Virus record (IMG/VR): IMGVR_UViG_3300048032_000927
Location: 32,001-96,000 of that record
Reading direction: 5' to 3' (one strand)
From: a virus
DNA length: 64,000 bases
Shown: positions 27,866-40,646 of the stretch, piece by piece
Layout of the letters: each line of letters starts with the position of its first letter
Numbering within the stretch: the stretch's first letter is position 1
Translations under genes and position numbers: made by a program
The notes under the pieces: generated by a model
What the model saw: only the letters and a program-made list of their open reading frames with translations
Told to the model about the DNA's origin: nothing
Databases searched by the model: none

Positions 27866-28806
27866 AAGAAAGTAAAGTCTTTGTGGCCGGCCATAGAGGA
27901 ATGGTCGGCTCTGCAGTATTAGATAATCTAAAATCAAAAGGCTACAATAACATAGTAACAAAGACTAGAAATGAAGTAGATTTAACTAGTCAGCAAGATG
28001 TTGATGAATTATTTGGTAATGAAAGCATCGATTATGTTATTTTATGTGCTGCTAAAGTTGGTGGTATATTAGCTAACAATACTTACAGGGGCGATTTCAT
28101 ATATGAAAATTTACAAATAGCCTCAAACATTATCAAGTCATCGCAAGTTCATGGTGTATCAAAATTAATCAACCTTGGATCTTCATGCATTTACCCAAGA
28201 GATGCAAAAATACCCATTAAGGAAGAATCGCTACTTACTGGTATACTAGAAAAAACAAATGAGCCTTACGCTATCGCTAAAATAGCGGCGCTTAAAATGT
28301 GCGAAGCATTCAATACTCAATACGGTAGTAATTTTTATTCACTTATGCCGTGCAATCTTTACGGTCCCCGAGATAATTTTGACCTTAAAACATCCCATGT
28401 TCTTCCGGCGTTTATTAATAAAGTTCATGCCGCAAAACTTTCGGGGCAAAAAGAAATAGAGGTCTGGGGTAGTGGCAAACCGTTAAGAGAATTTCTTTAC
28501 GTAGATGATTTAGCTAGCGCAGTAATATATTGCTTAGAGAATATTGAAGCTAAAGATATATACGAGCAAGGAATATCTCACATTAACTGTGGGTCTGAAG
28601 ACGAGGTTTCGATTTCTGAACTCATGTATATCATACAAGACGCCGTTAATTATAACGGTAAGATTGTCTTTGATAAAACGAAACCCGACGGAACCTTTCG
28701 GAAGAAAATGGATAACACAAGAATACAAAACCTAGGGTATAAAAATACTACATCATTAGCAGATGGAATAAAAAAAACATATTCTTGGTTTAAAAATAAT
28801 TTTTAA
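27862..28806 (+). CDS. fcl: GDP-L-fucose synthase
   Basis: AGHRGMVGSA, AAKVGGI.AN, GSSCIYP, YAIAK, SHVLP, WGSGKPLREFL. Confidence 0.96.
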   Translation: MKESKVFVAGHRGMVGSAVLDNLKSKGYNNIVTKTRNEVDLTSQQDVDELFGNESIDYVILCAAKVGGILANNTYRGDFIYENLQIASNIIKSSQVHGVSKLINLGSSCIYPRDAKIPIKEESLLTGILEKTNEPYAIAKIAALKMCEAFNTQYGSNFYSLMPCNLYGPRDNFDLKTSHVLPAFINKVHAAKLSGQKEIEVWGSGKPLREFLYVDDLASAVIYCLENIEAKDIYEQGISHINCGSEDEVSISELMYIIQDAVNYNGKIVFDKTKPDGTFRKKMDNTRIQNLGYKNTTSLADGIKKTYSWFKNNF

Positions 28807-28826
28807 CAATTATAATCTAATTAATC

Positions 28827-29084
28827 ATGGCTACTAAAAGTAAAAAGCAAGAAAAAGCAGAAGCGACTGACGCTGAAGTTCAAAACGAAAACGCCGGAAA
28901 AACTTCTATAGTTTTTGACGATAAAGAATACTTCCTTGAAGATATGACTCAAGAGCAGCAAGCTATCATCAGTCATATTAGCGACCTAGAAGGAAAGATT
29001 CAAAAGGCGCAATTCGACTTAAATCAGCATAACGTTGGTAAACAAGCGTTTGTTGACATGCTAAAAAAAGCTCTAGAAGCTTAA
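28827..29084 (+). CDS. Small coiled-coil phage protein
   Basis: 85 aa; heptad pattern ISHISDLEGKIQKAQFDLNQ. Confidence 0.6.
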   Translation: MATKSKKQEKAEATDAEVQNENAGKTSIVFDDKEYFLEDMTQEQQAIISHISDLEGKIQKAQFDLNQHNVGKQAFVDMLKKALEA

Positions 29085-29100
29085 TTTTGTCTTTTTTTAC

Positions 29101-29106
29101 GTGTAT
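29101..29106 (+). promoter_or_regulatory. GTGTAT motif, putative phage promoter
   Basis: Begins 14 nt before ATG 29115. Confidence 0.55.
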
Positions 29107-29114
29107 AATTCTGT

Positions 29115-30026
29115 ATGCGTAAAATAAAATCTCTAGTTACTGGTGGGGCTGGCTTCATAGGCAGTCATCTTGTTGAACGCCTGCTCAAAGCAGGGCACGA
29201 AGTCGTAGTGGTTGACGATGAGTCTTCTACTGCTAATTCAAATTTTAACTGGAGAGACGATACCGAGAATCATAAAGTTGACATTTGTGATTTCGATAAA
29301 CTTGAACCTTTATTTAAAGGAGTAGATTTAGTTTTTCATTTAGCTGCAAGATCAAGAATACAGATTTGCGTCCAAGACCCTTCTGACGCAGTTAAAAATA
29401 ATTCTCTCGGGACCGTTAATGTTTTGCAGTCTGCGAGATTAAACAAATGCAAGCGAGTAATGTTCGCAGGAACCTCCTCTTGCTATGGTTTAGCGAATCC
29501 TATTCCATTAACAGAGGATATGCCAAATGATTGTTTAAATCCATATTCAGTCAGTAAAGCTAATTGTGAAGAATTATGCAAAATGTATACAAAGCTTTTT
29601 GGGCTTGAAACTGTACTCTTTAGATTTTTTAATGTTTATGGCGAGCGCCAACCCTTAAGCGGAGACTACGCTCCTGTTGTTGGTTTATTCTTTAGGCAAA
29701 AAGAAGCTGGCGAATCGATGACTGTAGTTGGAGACGGCCTTCAAACTAGAGATTACACATATGTAAAAGATATAGCTGAAGCGATGTATCTGGCGGGCGA
29801 GTCTAAAAATAAAGAAATCATCGGAGAGCTTTTTAATCTAGGTACAGGCAGAAATCATTCTGTGTTAGATATAGTTAAACTAGTGGAAGGCGAATATATA
29901 CACATAGATGCAAGGCCGGGTGAAGCGCGAGAAACCTTAGCTGATAATACAAAGGCAAAGGCTATGCTTAATTGGAGCCCTACTCAGATATTTGAAGATT
30001 GGGTAAAAAATAACAGGCCTCAATGA
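29115..30026 (+). CDS. NAD-dependent nucleotide-sugar epimerase
   Basis: TGGAGFIGSH, YSVSK, RFFNVYG, GDGLQTRDY. Confidence 0.92.
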   Translation: MRKIKSLVTGGAGFIGSHLVERLLKAGHEVVVVDDESSTANSNFNWRDDTENHKVDICDFDKLEPLFKGVDLVFHLAARSRIQICVQDPSDAVKNNSLGTVNVLQSARLNKCKRVMFAGTSSCYGLANPIPLTEDMPNDCLNPYSVSKANCEELCKMYTKLFGLETVLFRFFNVYGERQPLSGDYAPVVGLFFRQKEAGESMTVVGDGLQTRDYTYVKDIAEAMYLAGESKNKEIIGELFNLGTGRNHSVLDIVKLVEGEYIHIDARPGEARETLADNTKAKAMLNWSPTQIFEDWVKNNRPQ

Positions 30027-30853
30027 AAATCGGCGTAATCGGTAACGGGTTTGTTGGTTCCGCAATTGCGAACGGATTCATTAATTATGACACAAAAGTC
30101 TTTGACAAGAATCCGGACATCTCAAAAAACTCGCTAGAAGAAGTATTATCTCAGGATTTTGTTTTCGTTTCTGTGCCGACTCCAATGAAGGATGCTATGG
30201 GTGCAGATTGCAATCTTTCAATAATAGAGTCTTGCTTTAATGAGGTAGAATCCTTGGGTTCAAACGCTGTTTTTATCATCAAATCTACTGTTCCAATAGG
30301 TACGACCAAATCCTTGCAGCGTAAACATAAAAACTTAAAGATAATACATTCGCCTGAATTCCTAACTGCTAAATTTGCTAAAGAAGATTTCATTAATGCT
30401 GATAGGCATATCATTGGATATACAAACAAGAAATCAATCGGCGAAAAAGCGATTAAACTTTTCAACAAAGCATTCCCAAATATACAAACAGTATTAATGA
30501 AAAGCGATGAATCTGAATCTGTTAAATATATTGCGAATTGTTTCTTTGCCACCAAGGTTAGTTTTTTTAATGAAGTATATTGTTTAATCGAAAAGCTTGG
30601 CCTTGACTGGCATTCAATTATTAACGGAGTTATCAGCGACAAAAGAATAGGTCAATCGCACTTTCAAGTTCCTGGCCATGATGGAGACAAGGGTTTCGGC
30701 GGAACTTGTTTCCCCAAGGATATCAATGCCTTAATTAAAACTTTTGAAAAAAATGGATTAGACCCTAAATTATTAACGGCGGCTTGGGATGTAAACCTCA
30801 ATGTAAGAAGTGACTTAGATTGGGCTAGATCAGAATCTGCGGTCAAAAAATAG
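30023..30853 (+). CDS. UDP-glucose/GDP-mannose dehydrogenase, short form
   Basis: GNGFVG, VPTP, KSTVPIG, PEFL, GFGGTCFPKD; ends before the usual C-terminal domain. Confidence 0.88.
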   Translation: MKIGVIGNGFVGSAIANGFINYDTKVFDKNPDISKNSLEEVLSQDFVFVSVPTPMKDAMGADCNLSIIESCFNEVESLGSNAVFIIKSTVPIGTTKSLQRKHKNLKIIHSPEFLTAKFAKEDFINADRHIIGYTNKKSIGEKAIKLFNKAFPNIQTVLMKSDESESVKYIANCFFATKVSFFNEVYCLIEKLGLDWHSIINGVISDKRIGQSHFQVPGHDGDKGFGGTCFPKDINALIKTFEKNGLDPKLLTAAWDVNLNVRSDLDWARSESAVKK

Positions 30854-30881
30854 ATTGTTAATAACTCAGCAAGGATTGTTC

Positions 30882-30910
30882 TTGCAATACACAATTTTCT
30901 ATGTTATCAT
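30882..30910 (+). promoter_or_regulatory. sigma70-type promoter for nrdA
   Basis: TTGCAA-N17-TATCAT with extended TG. Confidence 0.6.
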
Positions 30911-30958
30911 AGGAAAATCAGTCAAATATTTATTTTTTTTGAAATCCCAAATACCCCT

Positions 30959-30964
30959 GTGTAA
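30959..30964 (+). promoter_or_regulatory. GTGTAA motif, putative phage promoter
   Basis: Begins 15 nt before the nrdA ATG. Confidence 0.6.
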
Positions 30965-30973
30965 AATAGCTTC

Positions 30974-33448
30974 ATGGACATAAAAGTTAAGAAAAGAAAT
31001 GGTCGCCTAGAAAACTTCGAAGTAGATAAAATCAACGCAAGCGCCCAAAGAGCATGCGAAGAAATAGAGGACGTTTCAGCGAGTGAAATAGTTCTCGACG
31101 CCCAACTTCAACTATTCGATAAAATTACCACAAAAGAGATAGATCAAGCTCTTATTTTGTCGGCCAGAGAGAAAATCGAAAAAGAACCAAACTATTCTTT
31201 CGCTGCAGCAAGGCTTTTATTGAATTGTCTATACAAGGAGGTTTTCAAAGAAGGCGTTGATTCTGACGCATTCAGACTACAATACAGAAAAAGCTTTATA
31301 CAAAACATTAAAAAACTAGTTAAACAAAATAGACTAGATAAAAGACTACTAGATTTTGATTTAAATAAATTATCAGAAGCAATAAAAATCAGGAGAGATA
31401 AAGATTTCAAATACTTAGGTATACAAATATTATTTGATAGATATCTCCTTAGATCTGAAGATAAAATCATGGAAACTCCTCAGGCTTTCTGGATGAGGGT
31501 TGCGATGGGATTATCTATTAATGAAGAAAATAAAGAAGAAAAAGCTATAGAGTTCTACAATCTCTTTAGTCAGTTCTTATACACTCCCTCTACCCCTACC
31601 CTTTTTAACAGTGGAACTACTCACTCACAGCTTAGTTCTTGCTACCTTAATACTTTTGATGATAGTATTGACGGCATTTTTGACGGCGCTTGGCAAGAAG
31701 CTCGAAAATCAAAGTACGCCGGTGGCCTTGGCCTTGATGTTACCCCTTTTCGTTCTACAGGTTCTCATATTCAAGGAACTAACGGTATATCTAGCGGCTT
31801 GGTGCCTTGGCTTAAAATATACAACGATTTACTGGTAGCAGTTAATCAGGGCGGGAAGAGGCCCGGAGCAGGGTGCGCTTACTTAGAGCCTTGGCATTTA
31901 GACTTTGAAGATTTCTTGAACTTACGCAGAAATACCGGAGACGATAGGTTGCGCTGTCATGATATGAATACAGCCGCTTGGATTCCTGACGAGTTCATGC
32001 GTCGCGTTGAGAGTGAAGATGTCTGGTACTTTTTTGACCCAAAAGATACCGAAAATGAAGATGGAAAAAATCTTCACGATCTTTTTGGCAAAGATTTCGA
32101 CGATCACTACAATAAAATGTGTGATGCAGCAGAAGAAGGTTTGATTAAGAACTATAGGATAATACCTGCAAAAGAATTATGGAAAAAGATGTTGAAAGTA
32201 TTATTCGAAACCTCTCACCCTTGGAACACATTCAAAGATCCTTGTAACATAAGGTATACAAATCAACATGAAGGTACTGTTCATAGCTCTAACCTTTGTA
32301 CTGAAATCACGCTTCATACCAAAGCATCTAAGTATGAAGAAGGAGAAAAAACAGAAATTGGAGAAACGGCAGTATGTAATTTAGGTTCAATTAATTTATT
32401 TAATCATTTAATTCAAAAGCAAGCTCATGGAGGGTCAGGATGGGCTATTGATTATGACAAACTAAAGTCTACTATTCATACAGCTATAAGGATACTCGAT
32501 AATGTAATAGATATAAACTTTTACCCAACCAAAGAGGCTGCTAATTCAAATCTGCGCAACAGACCTATTGGCTTAGGCATGATGGGCACACATGATGTTT
32601 GCCACAAGTTAAACATAAATATAGATAGCGAAGAAGCGGTTAAATTTAGCAATAAGTTGTTTGAGTTTTATTCTCATCATGCTATTTACGCAAGTTCTAT
32701 ACTAGCTAAAGAAAAAGGAAAATACGAAACCTATGAAGGTTCTTTATGGAGTCAAAATATACTACCCATCGACTCTTATAACAATTTAACTTCATACCGA
32801 GATAAAACAAGGCAATTCTCCACAGGCAAAGGTGAGTCATTGGAATCTTGGGCTAAAGTTCGCGAGCACATTAAAGAGTTTGGCATGAGAAACTCTAATG
32901 TTATGGCTATTGCTCCCACCGCAACTATTGGTTACATTAACGGAGTAGAGCAAAGTATTGAGCCAAACTTTTCAGTGCTATTTGTTTACGAAAATAAAAG
33001 TGGAAACTTTTACATAACAAATCAACATTTCGTAAATGACATGAAAGAAAGAGGGTTATGGTCTTCAGAAATTGCGGCTATGGTCAAAGGTGCAGATGGA
33101 GATCTTTCTTTACTAAACGGCGCTATACCAGAAGATTTGAAGCAAAAGTACTGCACCGCTTTTGATAGAGATATGTTAAAACTTGTTGATTGTAATGCGG
33201 CTCGGCAAAAATGGGTTGACCAAGCAATAAGCTTCAATTTATACAATAAAACGACATCCCTGAAATATTTGAATGATATTTACATATCTTGCTGGAAAGC
33301 TGGGCTAAAAACTACTTACTATTTAAGAAATAGAGCGGCGAGTAAAATTGAAAAATCTACAGGATCAGAAACTTCAGAAACCGCAGAACAATCAGCTTGC
33401 AGCATAGAGGCAATGAAAAATGGGGGAACTTGCGAAAGTTGTCAGTAA
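30974..33448 (+). CDS. nrdA: Ribonucleotide reductase alpha subunit with ATP cone
   Basis: VKKRNG ATP cone, PTLFN, LSSCY, SNLCTE, VCNLGS, APTATI, TTYYLR, C-terminal Cys. Confidence 0.97.
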   Translation: MDIKVKKRNGRLENFEVDKINASAQRACEEIEDVSASEIVLDAQLQLFDKITTKEIDQALILSAREKIEKEPNYSFAAARLLLNCLYKEVFKEGVDSDAFRLQYRKSFIQNIKKLVKQNRLDKRLLDFDLNKLSEAIKIRRDKDFKYLGIQILFDRYLLRSEDKIMETPQAFWMRVAMGLSINEENKEEKAIEFYNLFSQFLYTPSTPTLFNSGTTHSQLSSCYLNTFDDSIDGIFDGAWQEARKSKYAGGLGLDVTPFRSTGSHIQGTNGISSGLVPWLKIYNDLLVAVNQGGKRPGAGCAYLEPWHLDFEDFLNLRRNTGDDRLRCHDMNTAAWIPDEFMRRVESEDVWYFFDPKDTENEDGKNLHDLFGKDFDDHYNKMCDAAEEGLIKNYRIIPAKELWKKMLKVLFETSHPWNTFKDPCNIRYTNQHEGTVHSSNLCTEITLHTKASKYEEGEKTEIGETAVCNLGSINLFNHLIQKQAHGGSGWAIDYDKLKSTIHTAIRILDNVIDINFYPTKEAANSNLRNRPIGLGMMGTHDVCHKLNINIDSEEAVKFSNKLFEFYSHHAIYASSILAKEKGKYETYEGSLWSQNILPIDSYNNLTSYRDKTRQFSTGKGESLESWAKVREHIKEFGMRNSNVMAIAPTATIGYINGVEQSIEPNFSVLFVYENKSGNFYITNQHFVNDMKERGLWSSEIAAMVKGADGDLSLLNGAIPEDLKQKYCTAFDRDMLKLVDCNAARQKWVDQAISFNLYNKTTSLKYLNDIYISCWKAGLKTTYYLRNRAASKIEKSTGSETSETAEQSACSIEAMKNGGTCESCQ

Positions 33449-33851
33449 ATATTCGGCGGGGGTAGCTATACTCTATGGCTCGTCTATCTTGTTGGCAAAA
33501 AGATGCGAGTTCTGCAATATTACAGGCAAAAAAGTATCATTCCCAGGCTACTGGTCTATATTTGCGGGGGCAATGGATAAAGGAGAATCCCCTACTGAAT
33601 GCGCATCTAGAGAGCTTTTTGAAGAGACTAAAATATCAGTAAACCCAAATGATCTTAATTTTCTCTCAACGAAGGAAAATTCTCATGGACTACTACATAT
33701 TTACTCTTTTGATACAGATCAATTACTTATACCTGAATTAAATTTTGAGCATACTCAATTCGGTTGGTTTAATATAAATGAATTAGATTCTTTTACTGAC
33801 AAAATAGACATAGAACTAATGCAGCTAATAATAGATAACAAATATAAATAA
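33420..33851 (+). CDS. NUDIX hydrolase
   Basis: GAMDKGESPTECASRELFEETKI Nudix box; start uncertain. Confidence 0.85.
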   Translation: MGELAKVVSKYSAGVAILYGSSILLAKRCEFCNITGKKVSFPGYWSIFAGAMDKGESPTECASRELFEETKISVNPNDLNFLSTKENSHGLLHIYSFDTDQLLIPELNFEHTQFGWFNINELDSFTDKIDIELMQLIIDNKYK

Positions 33852-33859
33852 TTTTTTTT

Positions 33860-33865
33860 GTGTAA
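33860..33865 (+). promoter_or_regulatory. GTGTAA motif, putative phage promoter
   Basis: Begins 15 nt before GTG 33875. Confidence 0.6.
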
Positions 33866-33874
33866 TCTATAGGC

Positions 33875-34189
33875 GTGAACCTCATTATAGAAGCGCCTCT
33901 CTGCGAACCGCCTAGCGAAATTTCTTCGTTTAGAGATATCACACTGTACGGAAAAACCTTTGTTTTTGAAGATATTGTTCTTCTTTGTCAAAAAGGTACT
34001 CGTTCTTTTTACTGGAATTGGTTAAAAGCTCACGGTGCGCATGACTTCGTTTCCTACTTAGCTTCAGATCATGAGACAATAGAAGGATTACTAATGCACA
34101 GTGAGAGAGGAGACTTTGTGGTAGATAGAATAAATACTGTTAACCTAAACAAAATAATATGTTTTTTTGAAAAATTAAGATTGCTATGA
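33875..34189 (+). CDS. Hypothetical protein
   Basis: 104-aa ORF with GTG start 15 nt after a GTGTAA motif. Confidence 0.55.
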   Translation: MNLIIEAPLCEPPSEISSFRDITLYGKTFVFEDIVLLCQKGTRSFYWNWLKAHGAHDFVSYLASDHETIEGLLMHSERGDFVVDRINTVNLNKIICFFEKLRLL

Positions 34190-34461
34190 ATATAAAAGTT
34201 TTATTTACTGTCGTGATGTGTTTATTTGTTGGTAATTGTGCTACTCAAAAACACGTAAATCAATCCTCTTATCATGGTTTATCCGCTGCGGCAAAACCAA
34301 CCGCTTCATTAAAAGACTCAACGCCTCAATCTAGTATTGAAATAAATACAGAAGCTCCACTTCATGCGATAAGCTGGATAGTTGGTGGAATATTTTTATT
34401 CTGCTTGACTAATGGAGTAAGTATTTACCTTTATTCTAGGTATAAAAAAAATAAAAACTGA
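34186..34461 (+). CDS. Small membrane protein (signal-like N-terminus with Cys, C-terminal TM helix)
   Basis: MNIKVLFTVVMCLFVGNC...ISWIVGGIFLFCLTNGVSIYLY-SRYKKNKN. Confidence 0.55.
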   Translation: MNIKVLFTVVMCLFVGNCATQKHVNQSSYHGLSAAAKPTASLKDSTPQSSIEINTEAPLHAISWIVGGIFLFCLTNGVSIYLYSRYKKNKN

Positions 34462-34463
34462 TC

Positions 34464-34492
34464 TTGACTTTGGTTTAGTTTCGTAGTATTAT
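34464..34492 (+). promoter_or_regulatory. sigma70-type promoter for nrdB (leaderless)
   Basis: TTGACT-N17-TATTAT; ATG 6 nt after the -10 box. Confidence 0.8.
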
Positions 34493-34498
34493 ACTACT

Positions 34499-35512
34499 AT
34501 GTCAGATAAAAATGGTCAACTTCTATCTCAAAATATCGCCGGTGTAAATCGAATCTTGCCTCATAAGCATAAGTATGCATGGGATCTATTCCTAAAAAGT
34601 TGTGCAAACAATTGGATGCCTACAGAGATTTCTATGCAAAACGATATTAATCAATGGAAAAATAATGAAATCACAGAAGACGAAAAACTCTTGGTCAAGC
34701 GTTGTTTGGGCTTTTTTGCTGGAAGCGAGTCTCTCGTTGGTAATAACTTGCTTCTTTCTGCTTTTAGATATATTACTGACGCTGAATGCCGCCAATATAT
34801 TTTGCGCCAAGCATTTGAAGAGAGTCTTCACAATCTTACGATAGTATACGTTTGTGATAGCTTAGATCTGGATATTGATGAAGTTTTTACTGCTTACGAA
34901 ACTATCCCTAGTATCAAAGCTAAAGATGACTTTCTTATGGGTATAACTGATGATCTTAGCCGCCAAGATTTCGATCCCACAACGACACAAGGGAAGCAAG
35001 AAATACTTAGGAATTTCTTAACTTATTGGATTGTCTGCGAGGGTACATTCTTTTTTAGCGGTTTCGCTATGCTTCTTGCTTTAGGCAGGCAAAACAAGCT
35101 TCAAGGTATTTCTGATCAAATTAAATATACATTAAGAGATGAAAGTTCCCATATTGCCTTTGGAACTTATTTAATTAATACATTGATCGAGCAAAATCCA
35201 GAAATCTGGACAGAAGAAATACAAAATGAATTTATCGAGCATATGAAAAAAGCCGTAGAGCTAGAGATAGCATATGCGAAAGATGTATTACCAACAGGTA
35301 TATTAGGATTAAATTCGGAGATGTTTGTTGATTATATGTATTATATTGGCAACAGAAGGCTTGAGGCTATTGGTTTAGATTACAGGTTTCCTAGTGATAA
35401 AAATCCGTTTCCTTGGCTGGGAGAAGTAGTTGACGTTCAGGCTATGGGCAACTTTTTTGAAAGAAGAGTTAGGGAATACCAACAAAGCGGATCTTTAGAA
35501 GACGATTTCTGA
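34499..35512 (+). CDS. nrdB: Ribonucleotide reductase beta subunit, class Ic (R2c)-like
   Basis: WMPTEI, LGFFAGSESLVGNN, RQAFEESLHNLTI, CEG.FFFSGF, RDESSH, NFFERRVREY. Confidence 0.95.
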   Translation: MSDKNGQLLSQNIAGVNRILPHKHKYAWDLFLKSCANNWMPTEISMQNDINQWKNNEITEDEKLLVKRCLGFFAGSESLVGNNLLLSAFRYITDAECRQYILRQAFEESLHNLTIVYVCDSLDLDIDEVFTAYETIPSIKAKDDFLMGITDDLSRQDFDPTTTQGKQEILRNFLTYWIVCEGTFFFSGFAMLLALGRQNKLQGISDQIKYTLRDESSHIAFGTYLINTLIEQNPEIWTEEIQNEFIEHMKKAVELEIAYAKDVLPTGILGLNSEMFVDYMYYIGNRRLEAIGLDYRFPSDKNPFPWLGEVVDVQAMGNFFERRVREYQQSGSLEDDF

Positions 35513-35518
35513 TCTTTA

Positions 35519-35524
35519 GTGTAA
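35519..35524 (+). promoter_or_regulatory. GTGTAA motif, putative phage promoter
   Basis: Begins 16 nt before GTG 35535. Confidence 0.6.
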
Positions 35525-35534
35525 TATATACGTA

Positions 35535-38297
35535 GTGAGTTGTCCTCGTATATATACATTATCTAGCATTAGTGGAGAAAGTGGAATTCTCTATAATGTC
35601 TCAGGATCTGGACTAAATTACGAAACCGGATTTTTTAATACAATCAGTGGTTCAGAAATTTCAGGCGAATATATTTACACTCCTGAATTAAGAAATACAA
35701 ACTTTGTATCAGAAACAGGTGTTTTCACAGATTTGCAGGCTGGAAACATAACAGGTAATACAGGTTATTTTGATAGAGCTTACATAGACTATATACATAG
35801 CCATACAATATCTAACTCGTATAATATATCTTCTCCCCATTTGTCGGCCACAAATATTGGCAATACAAATCTTTCTTCTCATAATATTTCGTTATATGAT
35901 AAAATTTCACTACTTAAATGCGATAAAGCATATCAAGTAAACTACCAAAGGCCAGAAGTTACCTGCGAAACTGATTTTTTTTATTCGGGTTGGCGCAACT
36001 CAATCGAGGGAGGTAATAATGATTACCTAGGCAATTCATTAGATTTAAACGATGCAGGAGATTTTTTAGTTATAGGTGGAAATAGATACAACAGTAACGA
36101 TGGCCTTATAAGAACATATTATTGGGACGGAGGCTCTTGGAATCAATCTGGAATAGATATAGTTGGTTCAAGTGCAGAAAGCTTGGGTCACGTTGTTTCA
36201 TTAAATTCAGATGGAGATATTTTGGTCTCAGCAGGTAATACAGCAAACTCAAATTCAGGAATTGTTTATGCTTATGATTGGATTGCTAATTCTTGGTCTC
36301 AAAGAATTAACCCTATTAGTGGTCAATCAATTGAAGAGTTCGGATCTTCTTTGTCTCTAAATGCGGATGGTGATTATATTGTAGTTGGGGCTCCTTTAGC
36401 TAACGATAATTCAGGAATCGTGCGCGTTTACAACTGGGATAGCAGCGAATGGACCCAAATCGGAGATGACATTAGTGGCGTGTTAGACAATGAATCTTTG
36501 GGTTATTCTGTAGATATCAATTCAGATGGGAAAATTATATGCGCAGGAGGTCCTGGAGCAAATACAGACGAAGGAATAACTAGAGCATATCACTACAAAG
36601 GAGTTGCAGCGAGCGGCATACTTGATGGACTTCTTTTTACAGCGCTTGAAGATTCTATTAACTTTAACGGATTATCTATTTCTCTTTCTCAAATTGCTGG
36701 TGGTGCATCTTCACCAAATCCACCAACACCCGCCACAGTAGTTTTTGATTCACCCTCTAGCAGTATCTTAATATCTGGAGATATTAATAACGGTTCCGTA
36801 ACTTACTCTGGTTTACTTGATGATATTACTGTTGGTTCAAATTTAACTGAATTAAATAATGCTGGATTTAGCGCTTCTATTCTTGATGGTTTTGACGAAA
36901 ATCCAATTAGTACTGCAGGGCCTATCATAACACAAGGCGGTCAAGATCCCTCTTGGGATATCGTTGGTAAAACTATTAGTGGTGATGCAAACGAAAAATT
37001 AGGATATCAAGTATCTTTACATAAAAACGCTTCATACATTATGACAAAAGGTATTGGAGGTAACGGAGGTAATGGCACAATTAAACAATATCAATTACAT
37101 GGATCTTATAATAATTTTTCGGATACTCGCTACTGGACTCATTTAAATCAAGACGTAGAAGGGAAAACCTTTGATGTTAATGATTCTTTTTCTATATTGG
37201 CTGTCGGAATTGACTCTGAAGACTCCAACACCGGAGTCTGTAAAATTTATGGCAAACAAGATAATGCTTGGGAGCAAATAGGTGAAGATTTAAATGGGCA
37301 ATCCTTGAATGAAAGTTTCGGATATTCAGTCGCTTTAAATAGCGATGGCGAAGTTCTTTGTATTGCTGGAAGTGAGTACGGATTAAATCAGGGGATAATT
37401 CGTCAATATAACTTTGACTATCGAGCAGACATACGGCTAAATTCCACAAGAGTTACTGCTGATAATTTAAATTTAGAATATTATGAATTACCTACCTCAG
37501 ACCCTCTTGTTCGAGGTGATGTCTGGAGAGATGAAAACGATTTCTTAAAAATCAGTCCAGGCTGGACTCCTGCTATTTTAAACACTATTGCATGGTATGA
37601 CGCTGCGGATACATTTAGAATCACATCTACTAATAACACAATTAGTCAAGTTAACGATAAATCGGGTAATAATATAAACTTAACGGTTATTACTGCTGGC
37701 ACAACTGGACCCAAAACTTCGACAAGAGTATTGAATAATTTAAATGTGATAGAATGGTGCGAGCCTCGGCAATTACTAGAGAATAACATATTCTCTCACG
37801 ATCAAGCGAATAGTGCTCTTTGTATAGCGATTGTTTTTAAGGCTGATTTTAATAATTCGCAAGATTTTATTTTTGCCGGCACAGATAGCACTTCCGCAGG
37901 AAATCGCATGGCTATTCGCAGGCTCCACACAAACGATAGCGTTCAAATATTAGGCGGGAGTGGTACAGGTTCTAATATAGCGATTGGTTCCGGAAACGAT
38001 ACTGTCGTGGAAGGTCAAGATTATATAGTGGTTGTTAAACTTAATTCCTCAAACTCCACTATCAGATTAAACGGACAGCTTAAAAAAACTGGAGATATAG
38101 GTACAAATCAAATAACATCTATAAATATGGGTGGGAACGCAATAGGATCTCAAAATATAAACGGCTACATAGCTGAATTTATAGCCTTTCTAGATACTGA
38201 TCAACAAGAAAAAATCGAAGGTTATTTAGCTCACAAATGGAGCCTTGCTTCAAATTTGCCCGGAAATCATCCGTATAAAACATATTGGCCATTTTAA
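35535..38297 (+). CDS. Putative virion adhesin: FG-GAP-like repeats plus C-terminal LamG-like domain
   Basis: Repeated (L/F)GxSVxLNxDGxxxxxG...GxVRxYxW units; AWYDAAD...DKSGNN and GYIAEFI...IEGYLAHKW. Confidence 0.72.
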   Translation: MSCPRIYTLSSISGESGILYNVSGSGLNYETGFFNTISGSEISGEYIYTPELRNTNFVSETGVFTDLQAGNITGNTGYFDRAYIDYIHSHTISNSYNISSPHLSATNIGNTNLSSHNISLYDKISLLKCDKAYQVNYQRPEVTCETDFFYSGWRNSIEGGNNDYLGNSLDLNDAGDFLVIGGNRYNSNDGLIRTYYWDGGSWNQSGIDIVGSSAESLGHVVSLNSDGDILVSAGNTANSNSGIVYAYDWIANSWSQRINPISGQSIEEFGSSLSLNADGDYIVVGAPLANDNSGIVRVYNWDSSEWTQIGDDISGVLDNESLGYSVDINSDGKIICAGGPGANTDEGITRAYHYKGVAASGILDGLLFTALEDSINFNGLSISLSQIAGGASSPNPPTPATVVFDSPSSSILISGDINNGSVTYSGLLDDITVGSNLTELNNAGFSASILDGFDENPISTAGPIITQGGQDPSWDIVGKTISGDANEKLGYQVSLHKNASYIMTKGIGGNGGNGTIKQYQLHGSYNNFSDTRYWTHLNQDVEGKTFDVNDSFSILAVGIDSEDSNTGVCKIYGKQDNAWEQIGEDLNGQSLNESFGYSVALNSDGEVLCIAGSEYGLNQGIIRQYNFDYRADIRLNSTRVTADNLNLEYYELPTSDPLVRGDVWRDENDFLKISPGWTPAILNTIAWYDAADTFRITSTNNTISQVNDKSGNNINLTVITAGTTGPKTSTRVLNNLNVIEWCEPRQLLENNIFSHDQANSALCIAIVFKADFNNSQDFIFAGTDSTSAGNRMAIRRLHTNDSVQILGGSGTGSNIAIGSGNDTVVEGQDYIVVVKLNSSNSTIRLNGQLKKTGDIGTNQITSINMGGNAIGSQNINGYIAEFIAFLDTDQQEKIEGYLAHKWSLASNLPGNHPYKTYWPF

Positions 38298-38329
38298 AAT
38301 AGGCGTTTTTTCTTTATAATAAGTTTATA

Positions 38330-38863
38330 TTGGACGGATATAAACAGAAATTAATCAGGAAATTAAAGACTCGTTGCTCTGAATTAAACGAAGAGCTCTG
38401 CGAGGTAGAATCTTTGTTTAATCAGGCCGTACCTCTTTTTTGCGCTGCAGTAGATAACTTCTGCAAATCTAATGATTTAGAAAACCCGTTAAATTCATTA
38501 AAAGATGATAAAGAAGAGGAAAAAATACAATTTTCTTCTAATTTTAAATCTGTTTATCGTAAAATAGCAATCGAAACCCACCCGGACAAAGGTATTGAAG
38601 ATGATAAAAAACTAGAATTATACCATGATGCCACAGATGCAAAAAAAAATCAACAAATTGATAAAATTATCAGTATAGCAAAAGACTTAAAAATAGACAT
38701 TTATGACTTTAGTTTCGAGGATATAAAGTTGATCGAGCAATCTATGTCTGATACAGAAGAAAAAATTAACAAAATACGCTCAAGCTACCCGTGGGCCTGG
38801 TTCTTTTCTAATGTAAAAAAAAGAGATGATATTATATCTGGGTTCGTGCTTAATAAAGTGTAA
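38330..38863 (+). CDS. J-domain (DnaJ-like) protein
   Basis: KSVYRKIAIETHPDK with intact HPD; TTG start. Confidence 0.72.
   Translation: MDGYKQKLIRKLKTRCSELNEELCEVESLFNQAVPLFCAAVDNFCKSNDLENPLNSLKDDKEEEKIQFSSNFKSVYRKIAIETHPDKGIEDDKKLELYHDATDAKKNQQIDKIISIAKDLKIDIYDFSFEDIKLIEQSMSDTEEKINKIRSSYPWAWFFSNVKKRDDIISGFVLNKV
38858..38863 (+). promoter_or_regulatory. GTGTAA motif, putative phage promoter
   Basis: Begins 16 nt before ATG 38874, at the head of the second glycan gene block. Confidence 0.5.
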
Positions 38864-38981
38864 TACATAATTTATGGACTGTAGCCTTATAATTTGTATC
38901 TTTTTTAATCTTTTTTTTTAATCTACTTATGAATCTTAAGGTATATGGAGTATTGCGTAATCACTTGGTTTAAGGAAATAA

Positions 38982-39074
38982 ATGGCCCGTTTAATTATAA
39001 AGAGGACTGCTACTTTGATAGTAAAGAAGCTATCTCGTCTTTTGGTTAAAGAGGTGCCTGCTCCACCTACGTAA
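38982..39074 (+). CDS. Putative 30-aa cationic peptide MARLIIKRTATLIVKKLSRLLVKEVPAPPT
   Basis: Read by hand, below the ORF-track cut-off; AAGGA upstream; stops 4 nt before the next ATG. Confidence 0.4.
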   Translation: MARLIIKRTATLIVKKLSRLLVKEVPAPPT

Positions 39075-39078
39075 TTTT

Positions 39079-39720
39079 ATGATAAATTTAGTAAAGCAAG
39101 CCATAAATAAAGCAAAATGTGTATATGAAAATAAAAGCATACAAATACTCGAATACCTCGATAAAGAAATCAAATACGAACAATCTTTAAAATATTATAC
39201 AGACCAGAATCACATAAATAAATTAACAATGGAATACGAAGCTTATCCTTTTAACGAATCAATTCATAGTCTTAGCTGTATGCCCGAGCCAGCTATAGAA
39301 GAAATTATCAGGGTTAATAAACGAATCACAGAACATACTTGGGGCGTTATATTAGAATCAGATAAAATTTCCGATTTAAATGTTTATATTGCGCAAATGA
39401 ATAAAGTTCAAATTAATGCAAGACAAGCTAATTTTTTTGTTGTTACAGATTCAGAAGAAGTATTATTAAAATTACATGATATATTCAACTGGATGAATAA
39501 AGTTTTTTATATTGTACCCAATACATACAATAGTAATATAGAAGAAGAATACAGAGCAAGTATTAATTTTCATTGCTTGAAACATCTAGACAAGCATATC
39601 TCTACCCCAAACTCTACATACATGAATATGTTAAAGCAAATTGGAGGTAAACAGGTTACAGTCCCAAGCCTTAGTAGAGTATTTTGTTTTAACGCCAAAA
39701 GATTAGTGCCAGAAGAATGA
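39079..39720 (+). CDS. Divergent GT23/GT11-like protein
   Basis: WGVIL, FFVVTDS and F.CL..L...ISTPNSTY follow the GVH.R / F.ATD / D..L layout, but key residues are changed. Confidence 0.4.
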   Translation: MINLVKQAINKAKCVYENKSIQILEYLDKEIKYEQSLKYYTDQNHINKLTMEYEAYPFNESIHSLSCMPEPAIEEIIRVNKRITEHTWGVILESDKISDLNVYIAQMNKVQINARQANFFVVTDSEEVLLKLHDIFNWMNKVFYIVPNTYNSNIEEEYRASINFHCLKHLDKHISTPNSTYMNMLKQIGGKQVTVPSLSRVFCFNAKRLVPEE

Positions 39721-40646
39721 AAAGAATATCGTACATAGTTTGCTCTCGTAATGATAATTATAACGGCGATTCTGTGGGCAGATGCATCAACACGGTTAAT
39801 CACGCTTGTGAAATTATCAAAAAAAATAATGTAGAAGATGAATCTGAAGTTTTGCTTATTGACTGGTGTTCAAGAAATGTGCCAATGAAAGATGCTATCA
39901 CTAGCGGATTGGTTCCAGAAACTCAAGGCTTGCTTAAAATTGTGACCGTTCCACCTGATATAGCGGACAAGCATCAAGGCGACTCACCATTCTCTGAGGT
40001 TCATGCCATGAATGTAGGTTTCCGCCAGATGGAAGGTAAACATTTTGCTCGCATCGATCAAGATACATTAATAGGTCAGCGTTTCATGGATTGGTTTCAT
40101 CATGAATTTGAAGTTAAAGATTATGGTTGGCCGTGGCCCCGTGCATCTTTCTGCAGCCGCCGAAATTTAGATGAATCACAGTCCCATCATTCTGTTTTTC
40201 GTGATTTTATATATGACCAACAACTTTCTTACAAGGTTGAGATTTGTCACGAGCACAATCATTACAGTCGATTGATGCCAAATAAGCAGGTCTTTCCTTT
40301 TTACGGTGGAGCAGTTGGCGTCATGATGGTTGAAAGAGAGTGTTATCTAGAGCATAAAGGCTTCAACGAGCAACTTGTATACATGAACAGTATGGATACC
40401 GAATTCATGAACAGGATTGCTGCAAAAGAAGATATCTACAATCTATGTCTAGCGATTGATGCAGATTTCTATCATCAATTTCATGGTCGTGATGATGGCG
40501 CGTCAAATGATACTACTCAGCCACACGCACAACAAGAAGGTGCTAGGAAAACTAATTCTTTAGACATTAGAAACAAGTTACTAGATAACCCCAACCCAGA
40601 TAATTGGGGTTTGCTTGACGAAGACTTGGAGGTTACAGCCTTATGA
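39717..40646 (+). CDS. GT2/GT7-like glycosyltransferase
   Basis: SRNDNY, LLIDW, NVGFR, RIDQD, GFNE, YHQFH. Confidence 0.68.
   Translation: MKRISYIVCSRNDNYNGDSVGRCINTVNHACEIIKKNNVEDESEVLLIDWCSRNVPMKDAITSGLVPETQGLLKIVTVPPDIADKHQGDSPFSEVHAMNVGFRQMEGKHFARIDQDTLIGQRFMDWFHHEFEVKDYGWPWPRASFCSRRNLDESQSHHSVFRDFIYDQQLSYKVEICHEHNHYSRLMPNKQVFPFYGGAVGVMMVERECYLEHKGFNEQLVYMNSMDTEFMNRIAAKEDIYNLCLAIDADFYHQFHGRDDGASNDTTQPHAQQEGARKTNSLDIRNKLLDNPNPDNWGLLDEDLEVTAL

What the first reader, a model, noticed from the sequence alone, without database searches (positions are those of the whole stretch)
34499..35512. Phage NrdB with both class Ic (Mn/Fe) hallmarks: Glu first ligand and Ile in place of the radical tyrosine
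Seen: first metal ligand is Glu77 (GAG at 34727, FAGSESLVGNN), and ExxHxxxY reads E108-SL-H111-NLT-I115 (ATA at 34841). Established: class Ia R2 has Asp and Tyr at these sites; Chlamydia trachomatis R2c has E89, E120, H123, F127 (the same 31/3/4 spacing) and uses a Mn(IV)/Fe(III) cofactor without a tyrosyl radical. The other ligands (CEG, RDESSH) and the C-terminal radical-transfer Tyr (VREY) are intact, so it does not look like a dead gene. Inference: the phage makes dNTPs with a cofactor that needs less iron and may tolerate peroxide or NO. I do not know of a characterised phage class Ic RNR.
Basis: partly seen in the sequence, partly recalled or inferred. Interest (0 to 1): 0.75.

Follow-up and report, generated by a model that had tools for sequence, protein, structure and literature searches.

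The report
Tyrosine-less "class Ic-like" phage RNR subunit
This uncultured marine phage carries an intact, strongly conserved ribonucleotide reductase small subunit whose closest solved relative is the Chlamydia Mn/Fe enzyme and which has Ile in place of the radical tyrosine; the same viral Ile/Val clade was described as "subclass Ic-like" in a 2026 preprint, and its metal cofactor is still unmeasured.

Summary
ORF 34499-35512 (+) is a 337-aa class I RNR beta subunit with Glu77 (GAG 34727) as first metal ligand and Ile115 (ATA 34841) at the radical-tyrosine position.

- **Structural match:** the nearest solved structure is Chlamydia trachomatis R2c (E 2.6e-112; model TM 0.85, about 50% identity). 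Ile115 aligns with F127 in a gap-free stretch. Tyr117 aligns with Ct Y129 and is not conserved in the clade.
- **Signature:** all eight first- and second-sphere residues of the published class Ic signature are present, as are the W39, Y210 and Y327 relay residues.
- **Context:** a matching NrdAz-type alpha subunit lies 1 kb upstream.
- **Distribution:** the gene belongs to one well-supported Glu + Ile/Val clade. All members placed so far lie on IMG/VR viral contigs, unnamed metagenome contigs or taxonomically discordant MAG bins. IMG/VR holds 357 contigs with relatives.
- **Selection:** dN/dS is about 0.03, so the gene is not dead.

Novelty is limited. RNRdb already counts Phe, Leu or Val at this site as class Ic. 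A 2026 bioRxiv preprint (PMC12918982) describes marine viral beta subunits with Ile or Val at this site, most probably this clade, as "subclass Ic-like" and uncharacterised.

The Mn/Fe cofactor, the iron sparing and the oxidant tolerance remain inference. One small addition from this work is that Asn112 and Cys180 mark the clade together with Ile/Val115.

The parts
34499..35512 (+). nrdB: class I ribonucleotide reductase beta subunit, 337 aa, of the tyrosine-less Glu + Ile/Val ('Ic-like') type
   Evidence: Pfam PF00268 E 2.4e-76. NCBIfam NF005550 scores 446 bits against a cut-off of 309. PDB 1SYY/4D8F E about 1e-112. AF2 model against Ct NrdB Mn/Fe gives TM 0.85. dN/dS is about 0.03.
34727..34729 (+). 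Codon GAG = Glu77, the first metal ligand (Ct E89; Asp in class Ia)
   Evidence: Glu in all 121 sequences examined (the window's own protein and 120 close homologs) and in all 76 sequences compared (75 IMG/VR loci plus the window).
34841..34843 (+). Codon ATA = Ile115, at the position of the radical Tyr (E. coli Y122, Ct F127)
   Evidence: In the clade this site is only Val or Ile: 74 V / 46 I among 120 of the 121 sequences examined, which include the window's own protein, and 67 V / 9 I in 76 sequences of the same length, again including the window.
30974..33448 (+). nrdA: class I alpha subunit, 824 aa, with one ATP-cone, of the NrdAz (Pseudomonas/Chlamydia) type; the presumed partner of nrdB
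   Evidence: Pfam ATP-cone, Ribonuc_red_lgN and Ribonuc_red_lgC. Best PDB hit 5IM3, P. aeruginosa NrdA, E 2.3e-232. NCBIfam NF005544 scores 1009 bits against a cut-off of 965. The thiyl-loop motif SNLCTEI, the pair TTYYLR and the C-terminal CESCQ are visible.

Best explanation
This is the working radical-generating (beta) subunit of a phage-encoded class I ribonucleotide reductase of the NrdAz/NrdBz lineage. It pairs with the NrdA encoded 1 kb upstream. It has no oxidisable residue at the radical-tyrosine site (Ile115) and has Glu rather than Asp as first metal ligand. The oxidising equivalent is therefore most likely stored on the dinuclear metal cluster itself, as in the Mn(IV)/Fe(III) cofactor of Chlamydia trachomatis R2c. 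From there it would be passed through the C-terminal Tyr327 to the Tyr-Tyr pair and the catalytic Cys of NrdA. Shown here: the homology, the complete ligand set, the conserved relay residues, the absence of a conserved tyrosine at or next to the site, strong purifying selection, the viral context and the partner alpha subunit. Inferred: the identity of the metals (Mn/Fe) and any ecological benefit such as lower iron demand or oxidant tolerance.
For: - **Closest solved structures:** Ct R2c with its Mn/Fe cofactor (E 2.6e-112). The AF2 model (pLDDT 78.5) matches 4M1I and 4D8F at TM 0.85 and 50-51% identity.
- **Signature:** all eight residues of the published NrdBzc signature (E,E,H,E,E,H plus second-sphere E and D; PMC6370689 Tables 3 and 4) are present as E77, E108, H111, E181, E215, H218, E107 and D214.
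- **Relay residues:** W39, Y210 and Y327 correspond to Ct W51, Y222 and Y338.
- **Ligand/site coupling:** among 150 representatives of 50%-identity clusters, Glu at ligand 1 goes with F, L, I or V at the Tyr site, and Asp goes with Tyr.
- **Constraint:** in 76 sequences of equal length (75 IMG/VR loci plus the window) the 12 other key positions never change and the site is V (67) or I (9). The median dN/dS to the window is 0.03.
- **Partner:** an intact NrdAz-type alpha subunit with thiyl loop, YY pair and C-terminal CxxC lies upstream. nrdA lies within 5 kb upstream of nrdB in at least 62 of 96 related loci.
- **Viral origin:** an IMG/VR virus record of 115 kb with tail and recombinase genes.
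Against: - No metal content can be read from sequence.
- The Ile/Val clade forms its own lineage (SH-aLRT 99). It is not nested with the Glu+Phe sequences I could include; the Bradyrhizobium-type representative groups with the Asp+Tyr Pseudomonas/Acinetobacter type.
- The clade also carries its own second-shell residues, N112 and C180, next to ligands H111 and E181. The cluster environment therefore differs from that of Ct R2c.
- The authors of PMC12918982 chose not to call the clade Ic and left open a mixed-metal, other-metal or no-metal cofactor.
Confidence: 0.7

Rival explanations
1. It is a functional tyrosine-less beta subunit whose cofactor is not Mn/Fe (for example high-valent Fe/Fe, Mn/Mn or another arrangement). 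The viral Ile/Val clade would then be a class I subclass of its own.
For: The clade is monophyletic and separate from the other Glu-type clades. It has clade-specific N112 (100%) and C180 (89%) beside two metal ligands, in addition to I/V115. The first-sphere pattern E,E,H,E,E,H is shared by class Id, which uses Mn2 (PMC6370689 Table 3). The preprint authors leave the cofactor open.
Against: The second-sphere residue before the EXXH Glu is Glu (E107), as in Ic. It is not C/S as in Id or D as in the Cyano SP clade. The best sequence and fold matches are the two solved R2c proteins, Ct and 6Y2N, well ahead of every other subclass.
Confidence: 0.2
2. It is a conventional di-iron tyrosyl-radical (class Ia-like) subunit that uses a nearby tyrosine such as Y117.
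For: Y117 lies two residues after the site, and the protein belongs to the NrdBz lineage, which also contains Asp+Tyr class Ia members.
Against: Y117 aligns with Ct Y129, not F127, with no gap. It is replaced by T, V, D or I in other Ile/Val-clade members. The first ligand is Glu and not Asp, and in the representatives Asp goes with Tyr.
Confidence: 0.04
3. It is not a reductase subunit: either an R2-like ligand-binding oxidase or a decaying gene.
For: R2lox proteins also bind Mn/Fe and lack the radical Tyr, and weak NCBIfam R2lox hits exist.
Against: All R2lox models score far below their cut-offs (70 bits against 194), and the PDB R2lox hit has E 1e-10 against 1e-112 for R2c. The C-terminal Tyr and tail for alpha binding are present, nrdA is adjacent, and dN/dS is about 0.03 with all ligands invariant.
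Confidence: 0.03

Closest known systems
Chlamydia trachomatis R2c (class Ic NrdB; PDB 1SYY, 4D8F, 4M1I) and the R2 subunit of PDB 6Y2N
   Same: About 50% identity and the same fold (TM 0.85). Glu as first ligand, the full E,E,H,E,E,H set with second-sphere E and D, no Tyr at the radical site, conserved W51/Y222/Y338 equivalents, and an NrdAz-type partner.
   Different: Ile (Val in most relatives) replaces Phe127, Asn112 replaces Thr124, and Cys180 replaces Met192. One ATP-cone in the alpha subunit; my recollection that Chlamydia has three was not checked here. The gene is viral and forms a separate clade. The cofactor is unmeasured.
'Subclass Ic-like' clade of marine viral RNRs in GOV 2.0 (bioRxiv 2026, PMC12918982)
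   Same: Marine viral contigs, alpha subunit nearest NrdAz, beta subunit lacking the radical Tyr with Ile or Val in its place, and no characterised member. The window's gene and its IMG/VR and Tara relatives fit every stated feature. This is most probably the same clade.
   Different: I could not match contig identifiers. As far as I read it, the preprint does not report the Glu ligand, the second-sphere residues, the relay residues, the N112/C180 signature or the selection analysis.
Verrucomicrobial and other bacterial Glu + Leu or Glu + Phe NrdB (RNRdb NrdBzc)
   Same: Glu first ligand, a non-oxidisable residue at the Tyr site and the same ligand set; about 40% identity.
   Different: These are cellular and have Leu or Phe. 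They form separate clades in the tree.
Cyano SP clade (P-SSP7 and P60 cyanophage class I RNR; PMC6370689)
   Same: Phage beta subunits that lack the radical tyrosine and have the E,E,H,E,E,H ligands.
   Different: Their second-sphere residue is Asp, not Glu, their alpha subunit lacks the ATP-cone, and they are phylogenetically far from NrdBz.
Pseudomonas phage vB_PpuM-Peetri NrdB (the nearest genuine phage in the phage collection; two higher-scoring 'Acinetobacter phage MD-2021a' records look bacterial)
   Same: NrdBz lineage, 44% identity, with nrdA upstream.
   Different: Asp first ligand and Tyr at the radical site, so it is class Ia.

Membership tests
Class Ic RNR beta (R2c / RNRdb NrdBzc) | Glu instead of Asp as first metal ligand (Ct E89) | tested here: met
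   E77, aligned to Ct E89. Invariant in the clade.
Class Ic RNR beta (R2c / RNRdb NrdBzc) | Remaining first-sphere ligands E,H,E,E,H and second-sphere E and D (PMC6370689 Tables 3 and 4) | tested here: met
   E108, H111, E181, E215 and H218, plus E107 and D214.
Class Ic RNR beta (R2c / RNRdb NrdBzc) | Radical Tyr replaced by a redox-inert residue (Phe in Ct; RNRdb accepts Phe, Leu or Val) | tested here: met
   I115 aligns with Ct F127, and the clade has only V or I. Ile itself is not in the RNRdb list. The preprint treats Ile/Val as atypical.
Class Ic RNR beta (R2c / RNRdb NrdBzc) | Electron-relay residues W51 and Y222 and C-terminal Y338 (roles recalled from the literature on Ct R2c, not re-read here) | tested here: met
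   W39, Y210 and Y327 align with them and are invariant in 76 sequences.
Class Ic RNR beta (R2c / RNRdb NrdBzc) | Phylogenetic placement inside the NrdBz group together with characterised R2c proteins | tested here: inconclusive
   It passes NCBIfam NF005550, and the best PDB hits are the two solved R2c proteins. In a quick ML tree the Ile/Val clade is a lineage of its own, and the deeper branches are short and poorly supported. The Ct sequence itself could not be put in the tree.
Class Ic RNR beta (R2c / RNRdb NrdBzc) | Mn(IV)/Fe(III) cofactor and no tyrosyl radical | not testable with these tools
   Needs metal analysis, EPR and UV-vis on purified protein.
Class Ic RNR beta (R2c / RNRdb NrdBzc) | Partner alpha subunit of the NrdAz type | tested here: met
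   nrdA at 30974-33448. NF005544 scores 1009 bits against a cut-off of 965, and 5IM3 gives E 2.3e-232.
Class Ia RNR beta (including NrdBza) | Asp first ligand and Tyr at the radical site | tested here: not met
   E77 and I115.
Class Id RNR beta (NrdBi) | Tyr conserved at the site; second-sphere C/S before the EXXH Glu | tested here: not met
   I115 and E107. Id structures are distant hits with E 1e-9 to 1e-12.
[quoted passage not shown] | Scores above the NCBIfam R2lox cut-offs; no link to nrdA | tested here: not met
   Best R2lox model scores 70 bits against a cut-off of 194. nrdA lies 1 kb upstream.
Cyano SP clade (proposed subclass of cyanophage RNR) | Second-sphere Asp before the EXXH Glu; alpha subunit without an ATP-cone | tested here: not met
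   E107. The ATP-cone is present in NrdA.

The most novel reading that the evidence does not exclude
The Glu + Ile/Val clade, so far placed only on viral or unassigned contigs, with its own second-shell residues (Asn112 after the His ligand, Cys180 before the bridging Glu, Ile/Val115), may assemble or tune its oxidant differently from Chlamydia R2c. That could mean a different metal pair or a different activation chemistry, which would make it a further class I subclass carried by abundant ocean phages.
Probability: 0.15. Interest if true: 0.7.

Novelty: already known. Interest (0 to 1): 0.33.

Why it matters
RNR is the bottleneck for phage DNA synthesis, and its cofactor decides which trace metals an infection needs. 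If this clade uses Mn/Fe, or some other cofactor without a tyrosyl radical, then a widespread group of large, low-GC ocean phages makes dNTPs with half the iron of a class Ia enzyme, or less. IMG/VR holds 357 contigs with relatives, and the preprint counts 269 alpha subunits, or 1.4% of GOV 2.0 viral RNRs. The enzyme would also lack a radical that hydroxyurea and similar scavengers can quench. No member has been characterised, so the clade is a natural test of how much the residue at the 'radical' site (Phe, Leu, Val or Ile) matters for a metal-stored oxidant. The sequence-level observation itself is not new.

Tried and rejected
- **Y117 as radical site:** rejected. It aligns with Ct Y129 and is not conserved.
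- **R2lox or a dead gene:** rejected.
- **Cultured phage relatives:** megablast of 28000-40000 against cultured phages found nothing. The RecA/UvsX-like protein has relatives at 27% identity or less, so no cultured relative or host could be named.
- **Nearest phage-collection hits:** they are not Ic-like. Pseudomonas phage Peetri is Asp+Tyr. The 'Acinetobacter phage MD-2021a' contig carries bacterial chromosomal genes and is also Asp+Tyr.
The viral origin of deep clade members was checked through IMG/VR scans instead. P0125-type relatives are on viral contigs, P0130 gave none, and P0155 gave only distant ones.
- **Bias in the genome-contig scan:** it used patterns built around CEG and RDE..H. 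It therefore returned mostly Verrucomicrobia and no Chlamydia.
- **Ct R2c missing from the tree:** the PDB search returns no protein id and long sequence may not be typed. A Bradyrhizobium-type Glu+Phe representative stood in.
- **My own error:** the 'nrdA_Cterm' probe was cut out of frame and gave a false 36-48% identity. Full-length NrdA is 78-85% identical between loci whose NrdB is 91-98% identical. Only the positional information is used.
- **Regulatory scan:** the promoter and terminator scan around the genes was no better than shuffles.

Full report
**The observation**

ORF 34499-35512 (+) is open and encodes 337 aa. Codon 77 is GAG at 34727 and codon 115 is ATA at 34841. Pfam PF00268 gives E 2.4e-76, and NCBIfam NF005550 scores 446 bits against a cut-off of 309.

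**Is Ile115 really at the radical site?**

The best matches among solved structures are C. trachomatis R2c (1SYY, 4D8F; E about 3e-112) and the R2 subunit of PDB 6Y2N (E 5.6e-106). The next subclass follows only at 1e-38.

The alignment to Ct R2c runs from residue 7 to 333 with one single-residue gap near the C-terminus. It pairs these residues:

| Window protein | Ct R2c |
|---|---|
| E77 | E89 |
| E108 | E120 |
| H111 | H123 |
| I115 | F127 |
| Y117 | Y129 |
| E181 | E193 |
| E215 | E227 |
| H218 | H230 |
| W39 | W51 |
| Y210 | Y222 |
| Y327 | Y338 |

An AlphaFold2 model (mean pLDDT 78.5) finds Ct NrdB with its Mn/Fe cofactor as top fold match, at TM 0.85 and 50-51% identity.

It fails on two counts. 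Y117 is the equivalent of Ct Y129. It is also replaced by T, V, D or I in other members of the same clade.

**The published signature**

Harrison et al. 2019 (PMC6370689, Tables 3 and 4) list E,E,H,E,E,H plus second-sphere E and D for subclass Ic (NrdBzc). The other subclasses differ:
- class Ia has D as first ligand;
- class Id has C/S at the second-sphere site;
- the cyanophage 'Cyano SP' clade has D at the second-sphere site.

The window's protein has E77, E108, H111, E181, E215 and H218 plus E107 and D214, which is the Ic pattern exactly. R2lox models all score far below their cut-offs.

**Partner and context**

An 824-aa NrdA lies at 30974-33448. It has one ATP-cone, the thiyl-loop motif, the TTYYLR pair and a C-terminal CESCQ. 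Its best solved relative is P. aeruginosa NrdA (5IM3, E 2.3e-232), and it passes NCBIfam NF005544. It is therefore of the NrdAz type.

A NUDIX gene and two small ORFs sit between nrdA and nrdB. In many related loci nrdA abuts nrdB directly.

The window is part of a 115-kb IMG/VR virus record estimated 82% complete. It carries tail-protein and UvsX/RecA-like genes and has no close cultured relative.

**How common is it, and is it alive?**

The large protein search found 4429 homologs at E below 1e-40. The top 120, at 80-98% identity, come from marine metagenomes, and some carry Tara names. In the 121 sequences then examined (these 120 plus the window's own protein), all have Glu at ligand 1. 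In 120 of them the site is Val (74) or Ile (46); one lacked the motif.

IMG/VR holds 357 viral contigs with relatives, some over 200 kb. In 76 sequences of equal length (75 IMG/VR loci plus the window):
- the 12 other functional positions never vary;
- the site is V (67; codons GTA, GTT, GTG) or I (9; ATA, ATT);
- dN/dS to the window has a median of 0.03, with synonymous sites near or past saturation.

More distant viral contigs at 48-71% identity show the same pattern. This is a functional gene under strong constraint.

**Position in the family**

Among 150 representatives of 50%-identity clusters, Glu at ligand 1 goes with F, L, I or V at the Tyr site and Asp goes with Tyr. A small Glu+Tyr group is the exception.

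I built a quick maximum-likelihood tree of 87 sequences.
- All 18 Glu+Ile/Val rows form one clade (SH-aLRT 99).
- Verrucomicrobial Glu+Leu sequences form another clade (SH-aLRT 100).
- A Bradyrhizobium-type Glu+Phe representative groups with the Asp+Tyr Pseudomonas/Acinetobacter type.
- The deeper branches are short and not well supported.

The Ile/Val clade members that could be placed lie on IMG/VR contigs. Others sit in MAG bins with mutually inconsistent taxonomy (Cellvibrionales, Woesebacteria, Deinococcota, Alphaproteobacteria), which look like phage contigs that were mis-binned. The nearest genuine phage in the phage collection, Pseudomonas phage Peetri at 44% identity, is Asp+Tyr and therefore class Ia.

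Besides I/V115, the clade is marked by Asn112 (100%; A, T or S elsewhere), Cys180 (89%; M, L or F elsewhere) and a C-terminal DDF.

**Prior knowledge**

RNRdb-based work already assigns NrdBz proteins with Phe, Leu or Val at the Tyr site to subclass Ic (PMC6370689).

A bioRxiv preprint of February 2026 (PMC12918982) reports a GOV 2.0 clade of 269 alpha subunits, 1.44% of viral RNRs. The clade lies nearest NrdAz. Its beta subunits lack the Tyr and carry isoleucine or valine. The authors name it 'subclass Ic-like' and note that no member has been characterised. In their results the group was anti-correlated with predicted iron. Their discussion says no single-metal pattern explained it.

Every stated feature matches the window's gene, so this is most probably the same clade. 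I infer this from the features; identifiers were not matched. Tyrosine-less phage beta subunits are also known from the Cyano SP clade.

**Verdict**

The Mn/Fe cofactor and its ecological benefits remain inference. The finding is not new: the clade and its Ile/Val substitution are already in the literature, though without biochemistry.

- the full eight-residue signature;
- the relay residues;
- the exclusion of Y117;
- the selection analysis;
- the monophyly of the clade and its apparently viral distribution;
- the N112/C180 co-signature.

Noticed in passing
P0123, P0124, P0127, P0129, P0131-P0133, P0135 (relatives, 614-661 aa): Many of the closest 50%-cluster representatives are about twice the normal length. 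NrdB is split into two matched stretches, with the break near residue 216 (inside the RDE..H ligand motif) or near residues 90-110. These are probably inteins. Only a sub-threshold Pfam Intein_splicing hit was found, in P0124.
   Followed up: partly
window 33420-34461: A NUDIX hydrolase gene (33420-33851, Pfam E 3e-16) and two small unannotated ORFs (33875-34189 and 34186-34461, the latter hydrophobic) sit between nrdA and nrdB. This cassette is present only in some relatives; in others nrdA abuts nrdB.
   Followed up: partly
L004, L005, L007-L010 (genome contigs): Contigs binned into MAGs named Cellvibrionales (210 kb), Woesebacteria, Deinococcota and Alphaproteobacteria carry this phage-type NrdB at 55-90% identity. 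The taxonomy is mutually inconsistent, which suggests phage contigs mis-binned into bacterial MAGs.
   Followed up: no
L003 (CAKLQH020000007.1, 'Acinetobacter phage MD-2021a'): This record of the phage collection carries rstAB, LysR- and TetR-family regulators and a chromosomal-type nrdAB. It looks like bacterial chromosome and not phage.
   Followed up: no
P0207, P0239, P0230, P0213, P0224, P0202, P0242 and others: A set of NrdBz-related proteins has lost several metal ligands (for example S/C, G/C, N/C or K/S at the ligand-1 and Tyr positions, and Q/L/K at later ligands). These are possibly non-catalytic R2-like proteins.
   Followed up: no
window 35535-38297: A 920-aa ORF lies directly downstream of nrdB. 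It has many short 'SLN.DG'-type repeats and a C-terminal region that looked lectin/LamG-like by eye. It is found downstream of nrdB in only 2 of 96 related loci.
   Followed up: no
window 13173-59680: The window is dominated by glycosyltransferase-like and sugar-nucleotide genes, including an epimerase at 29115-30026 and a UDP-glucose dehydrogenase-like gene at 30023-30853 just upstream of nrdA. Other first-stage notes on this genome describe the same.
   Followed up: no
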